Part shown: positions 7,713 to 52,586 of the stretch, in pieces
Layout: the number at the start of each line of letters is the position of its first letter
Numbering within the stretch: position 1 is the first letter of the stretch
IMG/VR virus record: IMGVR_UViG_2913167280_000003
Coordinates: 1 to 64,000 of that record
Direction: 5' to 3' (one strand)
Source: a virus
Taxonomy: Duplodnaviria; Heunggongvirae; Uroviricota; Caudoviricetes
Length of the DNA stretch: 64,000 nt
Position numbers and translations under genes: made by a program
The notes under the pieces: generated by a model
What the model was told of the DNA's origin: nothing
Seen by the model: only the letters and a program-made list of their open reading frames with translations
Database searches by the model: none

Positions 7713-7724
7713 TGGTAATCCTTA

Positions 7725-7745
7725 ACAAGTGACTAGTGTTAAATT
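7725..7745 (+). promoter_or_regulatory. P1-type late promoter candidate upstream of prt
   Basis: ACAAGTGACTA, 4 nt, TAAATT, about 40 nt upstream of the prt start. Same architecture recurs upstream of other late operons in this window. Confidence 0.45.
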
Positions 7746-7778: not shown

Positions 7779-10509
<2,731 letters not shown>

Positions 10510-10522
10510 CCACCAAAAATAA

Positions 10523-10548
10523 CCCCGGCGAGTGCCGGGGTTCTCGTT
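10523..10548 (+). terminator. Rho-independent terminator after pro
   Basis: CCCCGGC-GAGT-GCCGGGG hairpin followed by TTCTCGTT. Confidence 0.6.
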
Positions 10549-10553
10549 AACTA

Positions 10554-10808
10554 TTATCGCCTTCGCCTGCGTGCCATATATTTGCGCACCGCGCGGCGTG
10601 GGCAATCTGAAGCGGTTTCTTTCTGCTGCATCAATCTCGCGGCCATGCTCAAAAATGTCAGGCACAGCCGAAGCCCCGCATACAATAGCGGTTCCAGTGG
10701 CCACGTCTCATTGAGCACATATACCGCCATAAAAATCGAGTCGAAAACTATCGCCGCCAGCGATAACTTCATTGTCGAAAGTCGGCGGAACTGCCGGAGT
10801 TTATTCAT
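10554..10808 (-). CDS. Small hydrophobic protein downstream of lyz
   Basis: 84-aa ORF with hydrophobic segments and an Arg-rich C-terminus, overlapping the lyz stop. Could be spurious. Confidence 0.3.
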   Translation of the reverse strand: MNKLRQFRRLSTMKLSLAAIVFDSIFMAVYVLNETWPLEPLLYAGLRLCLTFLSMAARLMQQKETASDCPRRAVRKYMARRRRR

Positions 10809-11358
10809 TGACCAGCCCCGTCAGGCAAAGCTGGCGTTCTTTTTCACGGCGAATCTTTAAACCTCGCAGGGGAACGCCGTTACTGTTCACGAAATCAGGG
10901 AGATGGTTACACATATTCACCCATTCCCCTTTCTGCGCCCACTTGTGGATGGACGTTTCGACTCGCATGCCTCGCGCTTTGCTGTAGTAGGTCCGCAAAC
11001 TGTTACATCCCATATTGAATGCCGCGCTTGTCATTGCGCTGAAGGCATTATCTGGCATGTCTTTGCCCCGGAAGTGCTGGTTAATACAGCGTTCAGCGAT
11101 CAGGATATTCTTTTCCCAATCAGCGGCGATTTGCTGGTCGGTTTTTCTAACACCCGGCGTTACCCCGTGTGTATTACCGATCCCGTCAGTCCATACCCCC
11201 GCCGGGCACATGTATGGATCACGTCGGCAACCTTCAGCGTTACCAATCAGCTCCAGCCCCGCCTGGTTGGTTCGCACATTGCCATTACCCATCACGATGG
11301 TAATCATCACCGCGATCGCGCAAATTGCACCGCCTCCTGCGGCTGTTTTCCCCTTCAT
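10801..11358 (-). CDS. lyz: SAR endolysin (T4-lysozyme family)
   Basis: N-terminal signal-anchor-release segment GGGAICAIAVMITIVMGNG followed by lysozyme catalytic region AEGCRRDPYMCPAGVWTDGIGNT. Start placed at the internal ATG (11358) with a GAGG RBS rather than the extended ORF-track start. Confidence 0.9.
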   Translation of the reverse strand: MKGKTAAGGGAICAIAVMITIVMGNGNVRTNQAGLELIGNAEGCRRDPYMCPAGVWTDGIGNTHGVTPGVRKTDQQIAADWEKNILIAERCINQHFRGKDMPDNAFSAMTSAAFNMGCNSLRTYYSKARGMRVETSIHKWAQKGEWVNMCNHLPDFVNSNGVPLRGLKIRREKERQLCLTGLVNE

Positions 11359-11446: not shown

Positions 11447-11467
11447 AGGATAATGCAAATCACTTGT
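11447..11467 (-). promoter_or_regulatory. P1-type late promoter candidate upstream of lyz
   Basis: Minus strand reads ACAAGTGATTT, 4 nt, TATCCT (TANNNT) about 85 nt upstream of the lyz start. Confidence 0.4.
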
Positions 11468-11492
11468 TAGCTACGTTTCAAAGATATACATT

Positions 11493-18604: not shown

Positions 18605-19216
18605 TTAATTTCCTGCTTTCAGTTGCTTAAGACGGCGTTTTAGTTCGCCATTTCGGGCCTTTTCGTTATTGAGTCGGCCCGTCTCCTTATCCAGCTTCGC
18701 CCGCAAATCGGTGATCTGCTGTTGATTGAAAGACACCGAGTTCTGCGCGGACTTATAAGCGGCAGCCACCTGAGCATTCCTCTGTTTTGCCTCTTGAAGG
18801 CGCTGAAAATTGGATTTAACTGCCGGTTTCTTGTTTACCGGATTGGCAACACGTTTCGCTTTGGCGATCAGTGATTTCTGGAATTTTGCGGAGTTTTTGC
18901 GGGCCGCTTGCCCCATGACGGTACCAAGCGTCTTGATATCCGGCGACTGAGCGTTAGGAATAGCTTTTCCATTCAGTTTCACAGACGATATATCGCCAGT
19001 ATCGTTTACCTGTATGGCAAGAATTTGTCCGTCGTTAAGAACCAGCTTTGCGGTTTTAACTTTAACGCCATCTTTCGTTGTTGCGCGGTTGCTGGAGTCA
19101 ACCTCAATCACCGTCACACCGGTTTTATTGATCGCCGTGATAAGGGATTTCAGCCCCTTTTCATTAACCTGGTCAAAATCGACCGTTGTATACTTATTTT
19201 TCGTCATCTGACACAT
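18605..19216 (-). CDS. hdf: Hdf-like protein
   Basis: 203-aa ORF immediately upstream of darA, overlapping lydB. Confidence 0.45.
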   Translation of the reverse strand: MCQMTKNKYTTVDFDQVNEKGLKSLITAINKTGVTVIEVDSSNRATTKDGVKVKTAKLVLNDGQILAIQVNDTGDISSVKLNGKAIPNAQSPDIKTLGTVMGQAARKNSAKFQKSLIAKAKRVANPVNKKPAVKSNFQRLQEAKQRNAQVAAAYKSAQNSVSFNQQQITDLRAKLDKETGRLNNEKARNGELKRRLKQLKAGN

Positions 19217-19637
19217 CCTGTGCGAGATTTATTACGTAACTTCTGCGGATTTGCTGAGTAACAGGGAAAATCCGATACAACGGGTTAATGAACGAGTCGC
19301 CATGCGTAACCATGACGTTGAAATGCCACAGCCGTTCTCCTTTACCCATATATTCAGTGGGTATGTATAACCATTCGCTGTTTTCGCCCTGTTCAGCCGA
19401 TGTCAGACAACGTTGCTCGCCTTCAATCACTGTCGTCGGCTTCTGAACATCGCGGATCCAATACCTGACCGTTGCGCCGCGTAAAAAAGGAAATTTGGAC
19501 CGGTATTTGAACGGCACCCGGATGAAGCCCGGTTTAATTTCCACTTCACCAAGCTCTAAATTCGTGATGTCCTTGCGTTTTAGCAAATAGCGATCGGCTA
19601 AGGCTAACGCAAGAGCGCATACACCCCAGCCAATCAT
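19194..19637 (-). CDS. lydB: LydB-like antiholin
   Basis: 147-aa ORF immediately downstream of the holin-like gene with a 4-nt overlap. Synteny with P1 lydA-lydB. Confidence 0.5.
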   Translation of the reverse strand: MIGWGVCALALALADRYLLKRKDITNLELGEVEIKPGFIRVPFKYRSKFPFLRGATVRYWIRDVQKPTTVIEGEQRCLTSAEQGENSEWLYIPTEYMGKGERLWHFNVMVTHGDSFINPLYRIFPVTQQIRRSYVINLAQDVSDDEK

Positions 19638-19963
19638 TTCCCGCCTCCCTTTTTCACCAAACTTGTAAGAACATTCAGAATGCTATCGATATTCACTCGT
19701 TTCATCCCTGAAATCACCTCATGACCGTTATTGCTGGCTATCGTTACCATTAAGTACGTAATTGATAACTCCCAGCCCTCGTGTTGCCCCAATAGGTACG
19801 CCACCGCGCCAGCTGTCACTGCAACAAAGATCTCCGTAACCAATCCCAACAAATTGCCAGACTGGCGACCGTCTCGGACATCCATCAGGAACGTGCCTAT
19901 CCCACCAATTACTGAAAGCAGGAGCGCAATAGCAACTGGAGCTAATTCCTGTGTGTCAAGCAC
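19634..19963 (-). CDS. lydA: Holin (LydA-like)
   Basis: 109-aa protein with three hydrophobic helices (LAPVAIALLLSVIGGIGTFLM, IFVAVTAGAVAYLLG, ITYLMVTIASNNG) and a charged C-terminus. Confidence 0.6.
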   Translation of the reverse strand: MLDTQELAPVAIALLLSVIGGIGTFLMDVRDGRQSGNLLGLVTEIFVAVTAGAVAYLLGQHEGWELSITYLMVTIASNNGHEVISGMKRVNIDSILNVLTSLVKKGGGK

Positions 19964-47634: not shown

Positions 47635-47659
47635 ATTTTATTGAAAGTCACTTGTTGAC
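47635..47659 (-). promoter_or_regulatory. P1-type late promoter candidate upstream of the major capsid gene
   Basis: Minus strand reads GTCAACAAGTGACTT, TCAA, TAAAAT about 30 nt upstream of the ORF start. Confidence 0.45.
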
Positions 47660-51289: not shown

Positions 51290-51560
51290 ATTATGTGGAT
51301 AGTTTTTATCAGTGATGATAACTACCCAGGCTTTCCCGTCAGCACACATCCTATATCCCGCCAGCACACATTAGCAACCCGTCAGCACACATTTTTTTCC
51401 CTCCAGCGCACATCATTTTCCCTCCAGCACACATCGCGAAAGGCTTCTAAGCCAGACGGGACGCGGCCTACAACGATCAGGGATCTATATGGATCTAATT
51501 GGGATCTGTATGGACCTGATTATTGGATCTATCCAGTGGATAATGTGGATAAGTGAAAAA
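51290..51560. other. oriR: Plasmid origin oriR: DnaA boxes, incC iterons, GATC-rich region
   Basis: Five same-orientation iterons (51333-51435), five GATC sites within 55 bp (51474-51529), DnaA-box matches TGTGGATAA (51544-51552) and TGTGGATAG (51294-51302). Confidence 0.8.
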
Positions 51561-51593
51561 CCGGCCAACGTAGCCGGTTGGAAGGGAGTCGTA

Positions 51594-51986
51594 TTATTCT
51601 ACGCTTTCGATGAGAAGACCATGTTCATAGCATTTAAGCTCATCGCCCTCGTACAGGAATTGGTATCCAATACCACCATATTCAGGCACGTTAGGGAACA
51701 ATTCATCACTCGCCGAAGAACAAATCACACCAATGCAGCGATCAACATTTTCTCGTTCTTCAGTGCTGAAGAAATCCTCTTCAGTAAGCACTTGAGTACA
51801 TTCCTCATCAGCATAAGTCGGGAATACATGCTCAATACAATCTGGGTGCTTTAAGCCCAGCTGATCAGCAAGTTCGAAGGCATGACGGAATTGTTCAGAA
51901 CCTGGCTTGCCTACAGTGATTTGCTCAATTTTGTAGATTGAAGTCGCTTTGTTGATAGTTTGCTTAACTGTTACTTTATCAGACAT
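51594..51986 (-). CDS. Hypothetical protein (UpfA-like position)
   Basis: 130-aa acidic ORF beyond the origin. Confidence 0.35.
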   Translation of the reverse strand: MSDKVTVKQTINKATSIYKIEQITVGKPGSEQFRHAFELADQLGLKHPDCIEHVFPTYADEECTQVLTEEDFFSTEERENVDRCIGVICSSASDELFPNVPEYGGIGYQFLYEGDELKCYEHGLLIESVE

Positions 51987-51997
51987 AAAAATCCCTT

Positions 51998-52330
51998 TTA
52001 GTTACCGCTGATAGCGCGGTTGTAGTCATTGACGTTGCGATTCTTCCTGTTAATCCCCATCAGCATCGTTTCTGTATCGAGGATATAGGCTGGCAGATCA
52101 TCAAAATATTCACTGCTAAACTCTGGCATCCTACACATAAACGCACTTTTGGGGGCAGGGTGGTTAACCTTTGTCGGCGTCGGCGTTAAATTCGCTGATC
52201 GACTCCCGGAGCAACCGCTGAGTGTCAGCAGGAATGCGCTGGCGAACACTACCTGACGCAACCAGTTGTTTCTGAACTTCAGCTTTTCGTTCCATTTGTC
52301 TGTCTGCATACTTCGCTTGTTCTGATTCAT
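51998..52330 (-). CDS. Outer-membrane lipoprotein, candidate o-spanin
   Basis: Signal peptide with lipobox LTLSGC followed by a Pro-rich region; its start lies inside the upstream TM/coiled-coil gene in another frame. True start probably the internal Met (MQTDK). Confidence 0.5.
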   Translation of the reverse strand: MNQNKRSMQTDKWNEKLKFRNNWLRQVVFASAFLLTLSGCSGSRSANLTPTPTKVNHPAPKSAFMCRMPEFSSEYFDDLPAYILDTETMLMGINRKNRNVNDYNRAISGN

Positions 52331-52586
52331 TTTTCACTTCCTGGCTGTGAAAATGTTGATCCGCTTTATTCATCGTCTCAATGGTCTGGTTAAGATCAAT
52401 GATTGACTTATCGCGCTCCTTAACAGCCTGATCAAGGCTGCCAATTTTCTCCAAGGCTTGCTTTAACTGATAACGTTCCCATGCAAACCCAGCACCAACA
52501 AGTGCGCAAATCAGGACAAGAACACCAGCAACAGCAAGTTTCTCCTTCAAAGACAAAGCTGTTTTTAACGTTGAAAAAAACGACAT
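52164..52586 (-). CDS. N-terminal TM anchor plus periplasmic coiled-coil protein, candidate i-spanin
   Basis: 140-aa ORF; TM helix LAVAGVLVLICALVGAGFAW followed by a coiled-coil-like region; 3' end overlaps the lipoprotein gene. Confidence 0.5.
   Translation of the reverse strand: MSFFSTLKTALSLKEKLAVAGVLVLICALVGAGFAWERYQLKQALEKIGSLDQAVKERDKSIIDLNQTIETMNKADQHFHSQEVKNESEQAKYADRQMERKAEVQKQLVASGSVRQRIPADTQRLLRESISEFNADADKG

What the first reader, a model, noticed from the sequence alone, without database searches (positions are those of the whole stretch)
51998..52586. Overlapping TM/coiled-coil gene and lipoprotein gene beside the plasmid origin look like an i-spanin/o-spanin pair
A 140-aa protein with one N-terminal TM helix and a periplasmic coiled-coil overlaps, in a different frame, a lipoprotein gene with lipobox LTLSGC and a Pro-rich mature region. 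This is the classic overlapped spanin architecture, yet the pair is located away from the holin/antiholin and endolysin genes, next to oriR. If they correspond to P1 ppfA/mlp, they may be the spanins of this phage family.
Basis: partly seen in the sequence, partly recalled or inferred. Interest (0 to 1): 0.4.

Follow-up and report, generated by a model that had tools for sequence, protein, structure and literature searches.

The report
P1 ppfA/mlp spanin gene pair

Summary
Window 52164-52586(-) encodes a 140-aa protein with one N-terminal transmembrane helix and a long helical periplasmic domain. Window 51998-52330(-), in the +1 frame, encodes a 110-aa lipoprotein precursor with lipobox LTLSG|C. 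The genes share 167 nt, and the lipoprotein gene runs 166 nt past the first gene's stop, which is the "overlapped" spanin layout.

The window is a P1-like phage-plasmid, 95.8% identical to P1 in DNA. The two proteins are PpfA (94% identical) and Mlp (95%). Both match PHROG "Rz-like spanin" families. Mlp is detectably homologous to the phage P2 o-spanin LysC (BLASTP E 2e-8), and PpfA's best family is the one that holds P2 LysB. The overlapped pair, lipobox and a periplasmic Cys are kept in four diverged P1-like lineages.

Bednarek 2022 credits Summer et al. 2007 with identifying ppfA/mlp as the P1 spanins. The Kongari 2018 spanin table lists P1 gp064 and gp063 as overlapped i- and o-spanin. Several GenBank records say Rz/Rz1. 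Function is still untested, and CRISPRi knockdown left plaque formation intact.

Verdict: correct, already known, low interest.

The parts
52164..52586 (-). ppfA: predicted i-spanin, 140 aa. It is a type II inner-membrane protein with an N-terminal TMD and a helical periplasmic domain of about 104 aa. It has no periplasmic Cys.
   Evidence: ORF. 94% identical to P1 PpfA. PHROG phrog_89 'Rz-like spanin' at 2e-23, the family that also holds P2 LysB. AF2 helices 13-110 and 120-137. Listed as OIS in the Kongari 2018 table.
52482..52538 (-). Codons for the single transmembrane helix of PpfA (residues 17-35, LAVAGVLVLICALVGAGFA).
   Evidence: Kyte-Doolittle 19-residue mean of 2.61. It lies inside the AF2 helix. 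The hydrophobic stretch is conserved in all relatives, but Cys27 is not.
51998..52330 (-). mlp: predicted o-spanin, a 110-aa precursor. It has a 39-aa signal sequence and a 71-aa mature outer-membrane lipoprotein.
   Evidence: ORF. 95% identical to P1 Mlp. phrog_30284 'Rz-like spanin' at 1e-73 and phrog_456 at 5.6e-5. BLASTP against P2 LysC gives E 2e-8. Listed as OOS in the Kongari 2018 table, with LipoP cleavage at residue 39.
52211..52222 (-). Lipobox codons L-S-G-C (residues 37-40). Cys40 is the lipidated first residue of the mature protein, and Ser follows it.
   Evidence: Translation. Leu37 and Cys40 are invariant across the four lineages and P2 LysC.
52133..52135 (-). Codon of Cys66, the only periplasmic Cys of the pair. 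It is the candidate for the homotypic intermolecular disulfide.
   Evidence: Cys positions. The column is invariant in all four lineages and aligned with a Cys of P2 LysC. The requirement for at least one such Cys is described in PMC6139136.
52164..52330 (-). 167-nt stretch read in two frames: the C-terminal 55 codons of ppfA and the first 55 codons of mlp (+1 frame).
   Evidence: The geometry nearly matches P2 lysB/lysC, which share 146 nt in the +1 frame.
52592..52597 (-). Shine-Dalgarno AGGAGG of ppfA.
   Evidence: Conserved in JK004.
52334..52342 (-). Shine-Dalgarno AGGAAGTGA of mlp, inside ppfA.
   Evidence: JK004 has AGGAGGTGA at the same place before a conserved ATG. The alternative TTG at codon 24 is CTG in JK004.
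52626..53707 (-). Upstream genes of the same transcription direction: upfC (53423-53707, PAAR spike tip) and upfB (52626-53471, 'tripod' on the spike tip).
   Evidence: PAAR matches. Cryo-EM assignment in P1 in PMC12810830. Mapping to the window.
51594..51986 (-). upfA, the downstream gene in the same direction. Function unknown.
51559..51579 (-). Terminator-like hairpin plus T-run just after upfA. It is the likely end of the upfC-upfA transcription unit, before oriR (51332-51573).
   Evidence: a consensus scan only. oriR mapping.

Best explanation
The pair is the two-component spanin of a P1-like phage and carries out the last step of Gram-negative host lysis.

Proposed mechanism:
1. PpfA inserts in the inner membrane through its single N-terminal helix and extends a helical rod of about 100 residues into the periplasm.
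2. Mlp is exported, lipidated on Cys40, cleaved by signal peptidase II and sorted by Lol to the inner leaflet of the outer membrane. Its Pro/Thr-rich, unstructured N-terminal part reaches inward.
3. The C-terminal regions of the two proteins bind, so the complex spans the periplasm through the peptidoglycan mesh.
4. Mlp probably forms a disulfide-linked homodimer through Cys66.
5. When the holin and SAR-endolysin (LydA/Lyz) have degraded the peptidoglycan, the complexes are free to move and collapse. This brings the inner and outer membranes together, fuses them and removes the outer-membrane barrier.

Shown here: gene anatomy, targeting signals, conservation and family matches.

Inferred from the lambda Rz/Rz1 model and not tested for this pair: the complex, the disulfide, the timing and the fusion activity.

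The genes lie at the end of a transcription unit that starts with the baseplate spike genes upfC and upfB. This resembles P2, where lysB/lysC are followed directly by tail genes.
For: Anatomy:
- One TMD and a long helical domain in PpfA.
- Lipobox, Ser after the lipid Cys and a low-structure Pro/Thr stretch in Mlp.
- +1-frame overlapped layout almost identical in geometry to P2 lysB/lysC.

Family matches:
- PpfA hits phrog_89 'Rz-like spanin' at 2e-23. Mlp hits phrog_30284 at 1e-73 and phrog_456 at 5.6e-5.
- P2 LysB is in phrog_89. P2 LysC is in phrog_456 and cross-hits phrog_30284.
- Mlp against LysC by BLASTP: 37% identity over 68 aa, E 2e-8.
- The best NCBIfam hit of PpfA and the only one of Mlp are LysB and P2_Rz1, though both fall below cutoff.
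- The motif IPADTxRLL near the PpfA C-terminus matches LPDAVRRL of P2 LysB and PLPADIIRL of the Fels-2 i-spanin.

Conservation:
- The overlapped pair, lipobox and Cys66 are kept in four lineages down to about 30% identity.
- The mature domain is more conserved than the signal peptide.
- More distant PpfA relatives still hit spanin PHROGs.

Literature:
- PMC9025707 names the pair as the P1 spanins, citing Summer et al. 2007.
- The PMC6139136 table lists P1 gp064 and gp063 as an overlapped spanin pair with 0 and 1 periplasmic Cys.

Expression:
- In a low-count RNA-seq table, ppfA and upfB show log2FC 0 at 10 min and 3.1 and 4.0 at 20 min, like lyz at 3.2. This is weak and not statistically significant.
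Against: - No experiment has tested this pair.
- CRISPRi knockdown of mlp (EOP 0.24) and ppfA (EOP 1.3) scored non-essential for P1 plaque formation. In the same study lambda Rz scored essential. This fits the known conditional phenotype of spanin mutants, but it gives no positive support.
- There are no Pfam hits, and NCBIfam scores are far below cutoff: 17.7 against 92.75 bits, and 14.4 against 27 bits.
- PpfA against P2 LysB or lambda Rz is not significant pairwise or by hhalign. Coiled-coil composition can inflate profile hits.
- No P1 late-promoter motif lies upstream of upfC, upfB or ppfA. How and when the unit is transcribed is therefore not established.
- The 39-aa signal sequence is unusually long. 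It was flagged 'too long' in the Kongari table.
- The Mlp AF2 model is uninformative, at pLDDT 50.
Confidence: 0.85

Rival explanations
1. The pair encodes lysogen-expressed envelope proteins, such as a superinfection-exclusion or host-fitness lipoprotein system in the manner of lambda Bor or T5 Llp. On this view it travels with the plasmid-maintenance region rather than serving lysis.
For: - It lies next to repA/oriR/par, 32-41 kb from the other lysis genes.
- The P1 record annotates only predicted sigma-70 promoters (P1ppfA, P2ppfA) in front of it.
- No late-promoter motif lies upstream.
- It is non-essential for plaque formation.
Against: - Both partners match spanin families, and Mlp is homologous to P2 LysC.
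- The obligate pairing of a TM-helical protein with a +1-frame lipoprotein is the spanin signature, and it is conserved over deep divergence.
- The genes follow virion spike genes upfC and upfB in the same direction.
- The weak RNA-seq signal appears at the late time point.
Confidence: 0.07
2. The pair works with the neighbouring spike proteins UpfC and UpfB in virion assembly or in DNA entry across the envelope, not in lysis.
For: Same orientation and close spacing with upfC (spike tip) and upfB (tripod). This synteny is conserved in all four lineages.
Against: - Neither protein is among the virion components identified by cryo-EM of P1.
- Targeting signals place them in the producing cell's membranes.
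- Sequence relatives are lysis proteins.
- In P2 the spanin genes likewise sit directly upstream of the tail genes R and S without being tail genes.
Confidence: 0.04
3. The lipoprotein ORF is a chance open frame inside and after ppfA, and is not a gene.
For: - Gene callers often omit it. JK004 annotates only a 44-aa fragment, and some P1 records list no mlp.
- The signal sequence is atypically long.
Against: - An open frame of 109-111 codons with a lipobox is kept in four lineages.
- Mature-domain identity is 76%, 56% and 39%, against 42%, 37% and 18% for the signal region.
- The SD and ATG are conserved.
- Homology to P2 LysC.
Confidence: 0.01

Closest known systems
Phage P1 PpfA/Mlp (gp064/gp063). 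This is the 'P1' i-spanin and o-spanin family of the Kongari et al. 2018 spanin table, first proposed by Summer et al. 2007.
   Same: Orthologues at 94% and 95% amino-acid identity. Identical lengths (140 and 110 aa), identical overlap, and the same neighbours and position beside oriR.
   Different: Only point substitutions. There are 8 in PpfA. All 6 in Mlp fall in the signal-peptide region, so the mature lipoprotein is identical.
Phage P2 LysB/LysC, the paradigm overlapped two-component spanin.
   Same: Same architecture: about 140-aa i-spanin, o-spanin in the +1 frame, 146 nt against 167 nt shared. PpfA shares phrog_89 with LysB, and the o-spanin PHROGs cross-hit reciprocally. Mlp against LysC gives 37% identity, E 2e-8, with the lipid Cys and one periplasmic Cys aligned. 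Both are followed or preceded by tail or baseplate genes.
   Different: - PpfA against LysB is not significant pairwise.
- Scores fall below the NCBIfam equivalog cutoffs.
- The P2 pair sits in a lysis cassette directly after the holin, the endolysin and lysA. This pair is unlinked to them.
- The P2 LysC sequence carries seven Cys in all, against two in Mlp (the lipid Cys and one periplasmic).
- Mlp has a 39-aa signal sequence, against about 20 aa in LysC.
Lambda Rz/Rz1, the experimentally characterised embedded spanin.
   Same: Same predicted topology and the same presumed mechanism: an inner-membrane helical protein plus an outer-membrane lipoprotein, with a +1-frame arrangement.
   Different: - No sequence relationship detected. 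BLASTP gives E 0.67, and the PHROG families differ (phrog_13 and phrog_3198).
- Rz1 is fully embedded in Rz and is 60 aa long.
- Rz has two periplasmic Cys, while PpfA has none.

Membership tests
Two-component spanin (functional class; criteria of Summer 2007 and Kongari 2018) | The i-spanin is an inner-membrane protein with a single N-terminal transmembrane domain and most of its mass in the periplasm. | tested here: met
   Hydrophobic stretch at residues 17-35, KD 2.61. No other hydrophobic segment. AF2 helix through this region.
Two-component spanin (functional class; criteria of Summer 2007 and Kongari 2018) | The periplasmic domain of the i-spanin is largely alpha-helical or coiled-coil. 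| tested here: met
   The AF2 model has helices 13-110 and 120-137 at mean pLDDT 70. No dedicated coiled-coil predictor was available, so 'coiled-coil' itself is inferred.
Two-component spanin (functional class; criteria of Summer 2007 and Kongari 2018) | The o-spanin is an outer-membrane lipoprotein with a signal peptidase II lipobox and no inner-membrane retention residue after the lipid Cys. | tested here: met
   L-S-G-C40 followed by Ser and conserved. LipoP was not run here. The Kongari table reports a LipoP cleavage site at residue 39 for P1 Mlp but no Prosite hit.
Two-component spanin (functional class; criteria of Summer 2007 and Kongari 2018) | The two genes are adjacent, in embedded, overlapped or separated arrangement. 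| tested here: met
   Overlapped: +1 frame, 167 nt shared, 166 nt beyond the i-spanin stop.
Two-component spanin (functional class; criteria of Summer 2007 and Kongari 2018) | At least one periplasmic Cys in either partner, for a homotypic intermolecular disulfide. This is near-universal: 507 of 528 systems. | tested here: met
   Mlp Cys66 is invariant across lineages. PpfA has none in the periplasm.
Two-component spanin (functional class; criteria of Summer 2007 and Kongari 2018) | The two proteins form a complex across the periplasm and are needed for outer-membrane disruption. Mutants arrest as spherical cells in Mg2+ or without shaking. | not testable with these tools
   No experiment exists for P1. 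CRISPRi plaque assays score both genes non-essential.
Two-component spanin (functional class; criteria of Summer 2007 and Kongari 2018) | Location in the lysis cassette next to the holin and endolysin. This is usual but not defining. | tested here: not met
   The pair lies 32-41 kb from lyz/lydD/lydE and lydA/lydB. PMC9025707 describes it as a separate, unlinked operon.
P2 LysB (NCBIfam TIGR03495 equivalog; PHROG 89) | Sequence match above the curated family cutoff. | tested here: not met
   TIGR03495 scores 17.7 bits against a cutoff of 92.75. BLASTP and hhalign against P2 LysB are not significant. However, phrog_89, which contains P2 LysB at 5.8e-61, is hit at 2e-23. PpfA is at most a distant relative, not an equivalog.
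P2 LysC (NCBIfam NF038368 P2_Rz1 equivalog; PHROG 456) | Sequence match above the curated family cutoff. | tested here: inconclusive
   NF038368 scores 14.4 bits against a cutoff of 27, which is below cutoff. But BLASTP against P2 LysC gives E 2e-8, with reciprocal PHROG cross-hits at 5.6e-5 and 5.4e-4. Mlp is homologous but outside the equivalog.
Lambda Rz / Rz1 sequence families (PHROG 13 / 3198) | Sequence match to the family. | tested here: not met
   No Pfam family of any kind passes threshold for either protein. The PHROG families differ from those of lambda Rz and Rz1. BLASTP gives E 0.67.

The most novel reading that the evidence does not exclude
The pair may not be the only route to outer-membrane disruption in P1-like phages, or may matter only in some conditions.

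Three observations leave this open. Knockdown of either gene leaves plaque formation intact. The i-spanin has no periplasmic Cys. The genes are co-oriented with the spike-tip genes, with no recognisable Lpa late promoter upstream.

P1 already carries redundant, host-dependent holins (LydA, LydC, LydD). It could likewise use ppfA/mlp only in some hosts or growth states. Its expression might also be tied to baseplate gene expression rather than to the lysis operons.
Probability: 0.1. Interest if true: 0.35.

Novelty: already known. Interest (0 to 1): 0.1.

Why it matters
It matters little as a discovery. The assignment of ppfA/mlp as the P1 spanins has been in the literature since 2007, and it appears in the curated spanin table and in several GenBank records.

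Three smaller points have some value.
- The function has never been tested experimentally in this much-used model phage.
- The window confirms that the pair is strictly conserved in a new P1-like isolate, and the mature o-spanin is identical to that of P1.
- Annotation remains inconsistent. Some P1-like records omit the o-spanin gene, and two papers swap the i- and o-spanin labels.

Tried and rejected
- **Pfam:** no family passes for either protein. NCBIfam hits to LysB and P2_Rz1 are concordant but far below cutoff.
- **Direct comparisons of PpfA:** against P2 LysB (BLASTP; hhalign with an 11-sequence profile, probability 1.2%) and against lambda Rz. None is significant. The i-spanin link to P2 therefore rests on the shared PHROG and a short C-terminal motif only.
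- **tblastn of both proteins against 50,697 phage records:** found only P1-like phages.
- **Full HMMER profile search of 1.84 billion representatives:** 38 hits. The full-length hits whose contigs I examined sit beside an UpfB-like gene as in P1, and the weakest hits are long repetitive coiled-coil proteins. I found no relative sitting in a classical lysis cassette, so guilt-by-association with an endolysin could not be obtained.
- **P1 late-promoter motif** (AACAAGTGA-N7-TANNNT, derived from LPpro and LPlyz): recovers known sites but none upstream of upfC, upfB or ppfA. The generic sigma-70 scan found nothing convincing either.
- **Alternative mlp starts:** Met8 and TTG24 were considered and rejected, because neither is conserved in JK004, while ATG1 and its SD are.
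- **AF2 model of Mlp:** too poor to use (pLDDT 50). I ran no fold searches, because single helices and disordered chains give meaningless matches.
- **Primary papers:** Summer et al. 2007 and Lobocka et al. 2004 are not held in the library. Their content is cited second-hand through PMC9025707 and the GenBank notes.

Full report
**What is in the sequence**

The first is 52164..52586, 140 aa. The second is 51998..52330, 110 aa.

The second ORF starts 256 nt into the first, in the +1 frame. It shares 167 nt with it and continues 166 nt past its stop.

The 140-aa protein has one strongly hydrophobic stretch at residues 17-35, with a Kyte-Doolittle mean of 2.61. It has a single Cys, which lies inside that stretch, and a charged, Gln-rich remainder. 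AlphaFold2, run with ten family members, models a continuous helix over residues 13-110, a short break at GSVRQRIPA, and a second helix over 120-137. Mean pLDDT is 70.

The 110-aa protein has a basic N-region, a hydrophobic core, and the lipobox L-S-G-C40 followed by Ser. Its mature part is 71 aa. That part begins with a Pro/Thr-rich stretch (TPTPTKVNHPAP) and contains one further Cys, Cys66. Its AF2 model is of low confidence (pLDDT 50), with no structure in residues 40-72.

Both starts carry Shine-Dalgarno sequences. These are conserved in a relative that is about 60% identical. The alternative internal starts are not conserved.

**What the window is**

The region 51400-53800 is 95.8% identical to phage P1 and about 92-95% identical to P7, RCS47, SJ46 and other P1-like phage-plasmids.

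In the P1 record the homologous genes are ppfA ('possible periplasmic function') and mlp ('membrane lipoprotein precursor ... possibly involved in regulation of lysis (by homology)'). RefSeq has renamed mlp 'Rz-like spanin'. The local gene order is repA - oriR - upfA - mlp - ppfA - upfB - upfC.

The window proteins are 94% and 95% identical to P1 PpfA and Mlp. All six Mlp differences lie in the signal-peptide region, so the mature lipoprotein is identical.

oriR maps to window 51332-51573, and only upfA (51594-51986) separates it from mlp. The other lysis genes map to 10489-11358 (lydE, lydD, lyz) and about 19194-19963 (lydB, lydA), which is 32-41 kb away.

**Evidence for real, selected genes**

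The same arrangement is present in four lineages:
- The window itself.
- Cronobacter phage JK004: 140-aa and 110-aa ORFs with lipobox LTLSAC. Its record annotates only a 44-aa fragment of the second gene.
- A more distant set of 90-94-kb contigs: a 151-aa protein with a 109-aa lipoprotein ORF.
- A short metagenomic contig: 145 aa and 111 aa, with lipobox LSLSSC.

Across these, Mlp identity to the window falls to 32% and PpfA identity to 28%. The lipid Cys, Cys66 (motif MC-x-[ML]-P-x-F), the motif DL-x-x-YI-x-D and the C-terminal N-[RN]-KN motif all persist.

The mature domain is more conserved than the signal region: 76%, 56% and 39% against 42%, 37% and 18%.

PpfA keeps its TMD and a conserved C-terminal segment, IP-x-x-T-[KQ]-[RQ]-[LM]-L...S-I-x-x-[FL]-N-A.

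**Relationship to known spanins**

PHROGs assigns PpfA to phrog_89 'Rz-like spanin' at 2e-23, with weaker hits to two other spanin PHROGs. It assigns Mlp to phrog_30284 'Rz-like spanin' at 1e-73, with a hit to phrog_456 at 5.6e-5.

I fetched the paradigm pairs from lambda and P2. P2 LysB belongs to phrog_89 (5.8e-61). P2 LysC belongs to phrog_456 (1.7e-31) and cross-hits the Mlp family phrog_30284 at 5.4e-4. Lambda Rz and Rz1 fall in other families.

Mlp aligns directly with P2 LysC at 37% identity over 68 residues, E 2e-8, with the lipobox Cys and one periplasmic Cys in register. In NCBIfam, the best hit of PpfA and the only hit of Mlp are LysB and P2_Rz1 respectively, but both are far below cutoff.

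The i-spanin link is weaker. BLASTP and hhalign against P2 LysB are not significant. What remains is the shared PHROG and a short motif: IPADTQRLL in PpfA, LPDAVRRL in P2 LysB, and PLPADIIRL in the Fels-2 i-spanin. PHROG profiles may contain P1 sequences themselves, and coiled-coil composition can inflate scores, so I treat this as moderate evidence.

Gene geometry is nearly the same as in P2. The sizes are 423 and 333 nt with 167 nt shared, against 426 and 291 nt with 146 nt shared, and both use the +1 frame.

**Context and expression**

The two genes upstream in the same direction are now known virion parts. Cryo-EM of P1 places UpfC as the PAAR-like spike tip and UpfB as a 'tripod' attached to it (PAAR matches). 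The spanin pair is thus at the tail end of a baseplate-spike transcription unit. This recalls P2, where lysB/lysC are followed directly by the tail genes R and S.

A terminator-like hairpin at 51559-51579 follows upfA, just before oriR.

The P1 late-promoter motif was derived from LPpro and LPlyz. It recovers perfect sites at 7724, 11447, 47635 and 63317, but none upstream of upfC, upfB or ppfA.

The intergenic region between upfC and the divergent uhr/dmt unit holds a C1 operator at 53789-53805. The P1 record lists only predicted sigma-70 promoters inside upfB.

A recent P1vir RNA-seq table gives ppfA and upfB log2 fold changes of 0 at 10 min and 3.1 and 4.0 at 20 min. That pattern resembles lyz (3.2) and prt (4.0) and differs from early genes such as ssb. 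The counts are low and not significant.

**What is already known**

PMC9025707 (2022) states that ppfA and mlp are the spanin genes of P1. It says they partially overlap, lie in an operon unlinked to the other lysis genes, were identified from predicted product features by Summer et al. 2007, and have not been verified experimentally. That text labels ppfA as the o-spanin and mlp as the i-spanin. This is the wrong way round given the sequences, and the swap is copied in the 2025 bioRxiv table.

The supplementary spanin table of PMC6139136 (2018) lists P1 as 'ovl', with gp064 as OIS and gp063 as OOS. Both are placed in a family of their own ('P1'). The table records 0 periplasmic Cys in the i-spanin ('one in TMD') and 1 in the o-spanin, and carries the notes 'Too long signal sequence' and 'LipoP server finds cleavage site at 39th position'.

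Several GenBank P1-like records name the genes Rz and Rz1.

A genome-wide CRISPRi study scored mlp (EOP 0.24) and ppfA (EOP 1.3) as non-essential for plaque formation. By established knowledge of lambda Rz/Rz1, spanin defects show mainly with divalent cations or without shear. This result therefore neither confirms nor refutes the role.

**Conclusion**

It coincides with the published, curated assignment. The remaining uncertainty is purely experimental: complex formation, the Cys66 disulfide, timing and promoter, and the lysis phenotype.

Confidence that the pair is the spanin of this phage family is 0.85. The main rival, a lysogen-expressed envelope function linked to the plasmid region, rests only on position and the missing late promoter.

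Novelty: already known. Interest: low.

Noticed in passing
window 53423-53707 (-) and 52626-53471 (-): upfC is a PAAR-type protein (Pfam PAAR_motif 1e-5; NCBIfam T6SS PAAR domain 4e-9). Together with upfB it is now assigned by cryo-EM to the P1 spike tip and 'tripod'. The spanin genes therefore follow baseplate-spike genes. The listed upfB ORF (281 aa) overlaps upfC by 49 nt. The PHROG alignment and the JK004 and L006 homologues start at its Met20 (MLEKDYQL), so the true start may be 53414.
   Followed up: partly
literature: PMC9025707 and the Table S1 of bioRxiv 10.64898/2025.12.28.696737: Both call ppfA the o-spanin and mlp the i-spanin. The sequences show the reverse: PpfA has the TMD and helical domain, and Mlp has the lipobox. 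The Kongari 2018 table has the labels right.
   Followed up: yes
L002 4260-4592 (Cronobacter phage JK004); also the P1-like records OP279344, ON470615, ON470617 and MH160767: The full-length o-spanin gene is not annotated in several P1-like records. JK004 has only a 44-aa fragment, gene_24, and others list ppfA but no mlp. This is the known gene-caller bias against overlapped genes.
   Followed up: partly
window 53789-53805 (+): A C1 repressor operator with one mismatch to the consensus, corresponding to P1 Odmt/Op68. It lies in the divergent intergenic region about 80-100 nt upstream of the upfC start. Whether it also controls the leftward upfC-upfA unit is unknown.
   Followed up: no
window 51559-51579 (-): A terminator-like GC-rich hairpin with a T-run immediately after upfA. 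It overlaps the outer edge of the mapped oriR (51332-51573). It may insulate the plasmid origin from read-through transcription.
   Followed up: no
window 7724-7745 (+), 11447-11468 (-), 47635-47656 (-), 63317-63338 (-): Four perfect matches to the P1 late-promoter pattern AACAAGTGA-N7-TANNNT. The first two correspond to LPpro and LPlyz. The other two were not assigned.
   Followed up: no
window about 11400-52100 compared with P1 20900-63500: The window-to-P1 coordinate offset changes from 9524 at lyz to 11356 at ppfA. The window therefore holds about 1.8 kb less DNA than P1 between these genes. Loss of IS1 is a possibility, together with other indels. Not examined.
   Followed up: no
PpfA residue 27 (window 52506-52508): The only Cys of the i-spanin lies in the TMD. 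It is replaced by Ile/Gly in the ~60%-identity lineage, so that i-spanin has no Cys at all. A more distant relative (P0109) has a periplasmic Cys instead.
   Followed up: partly
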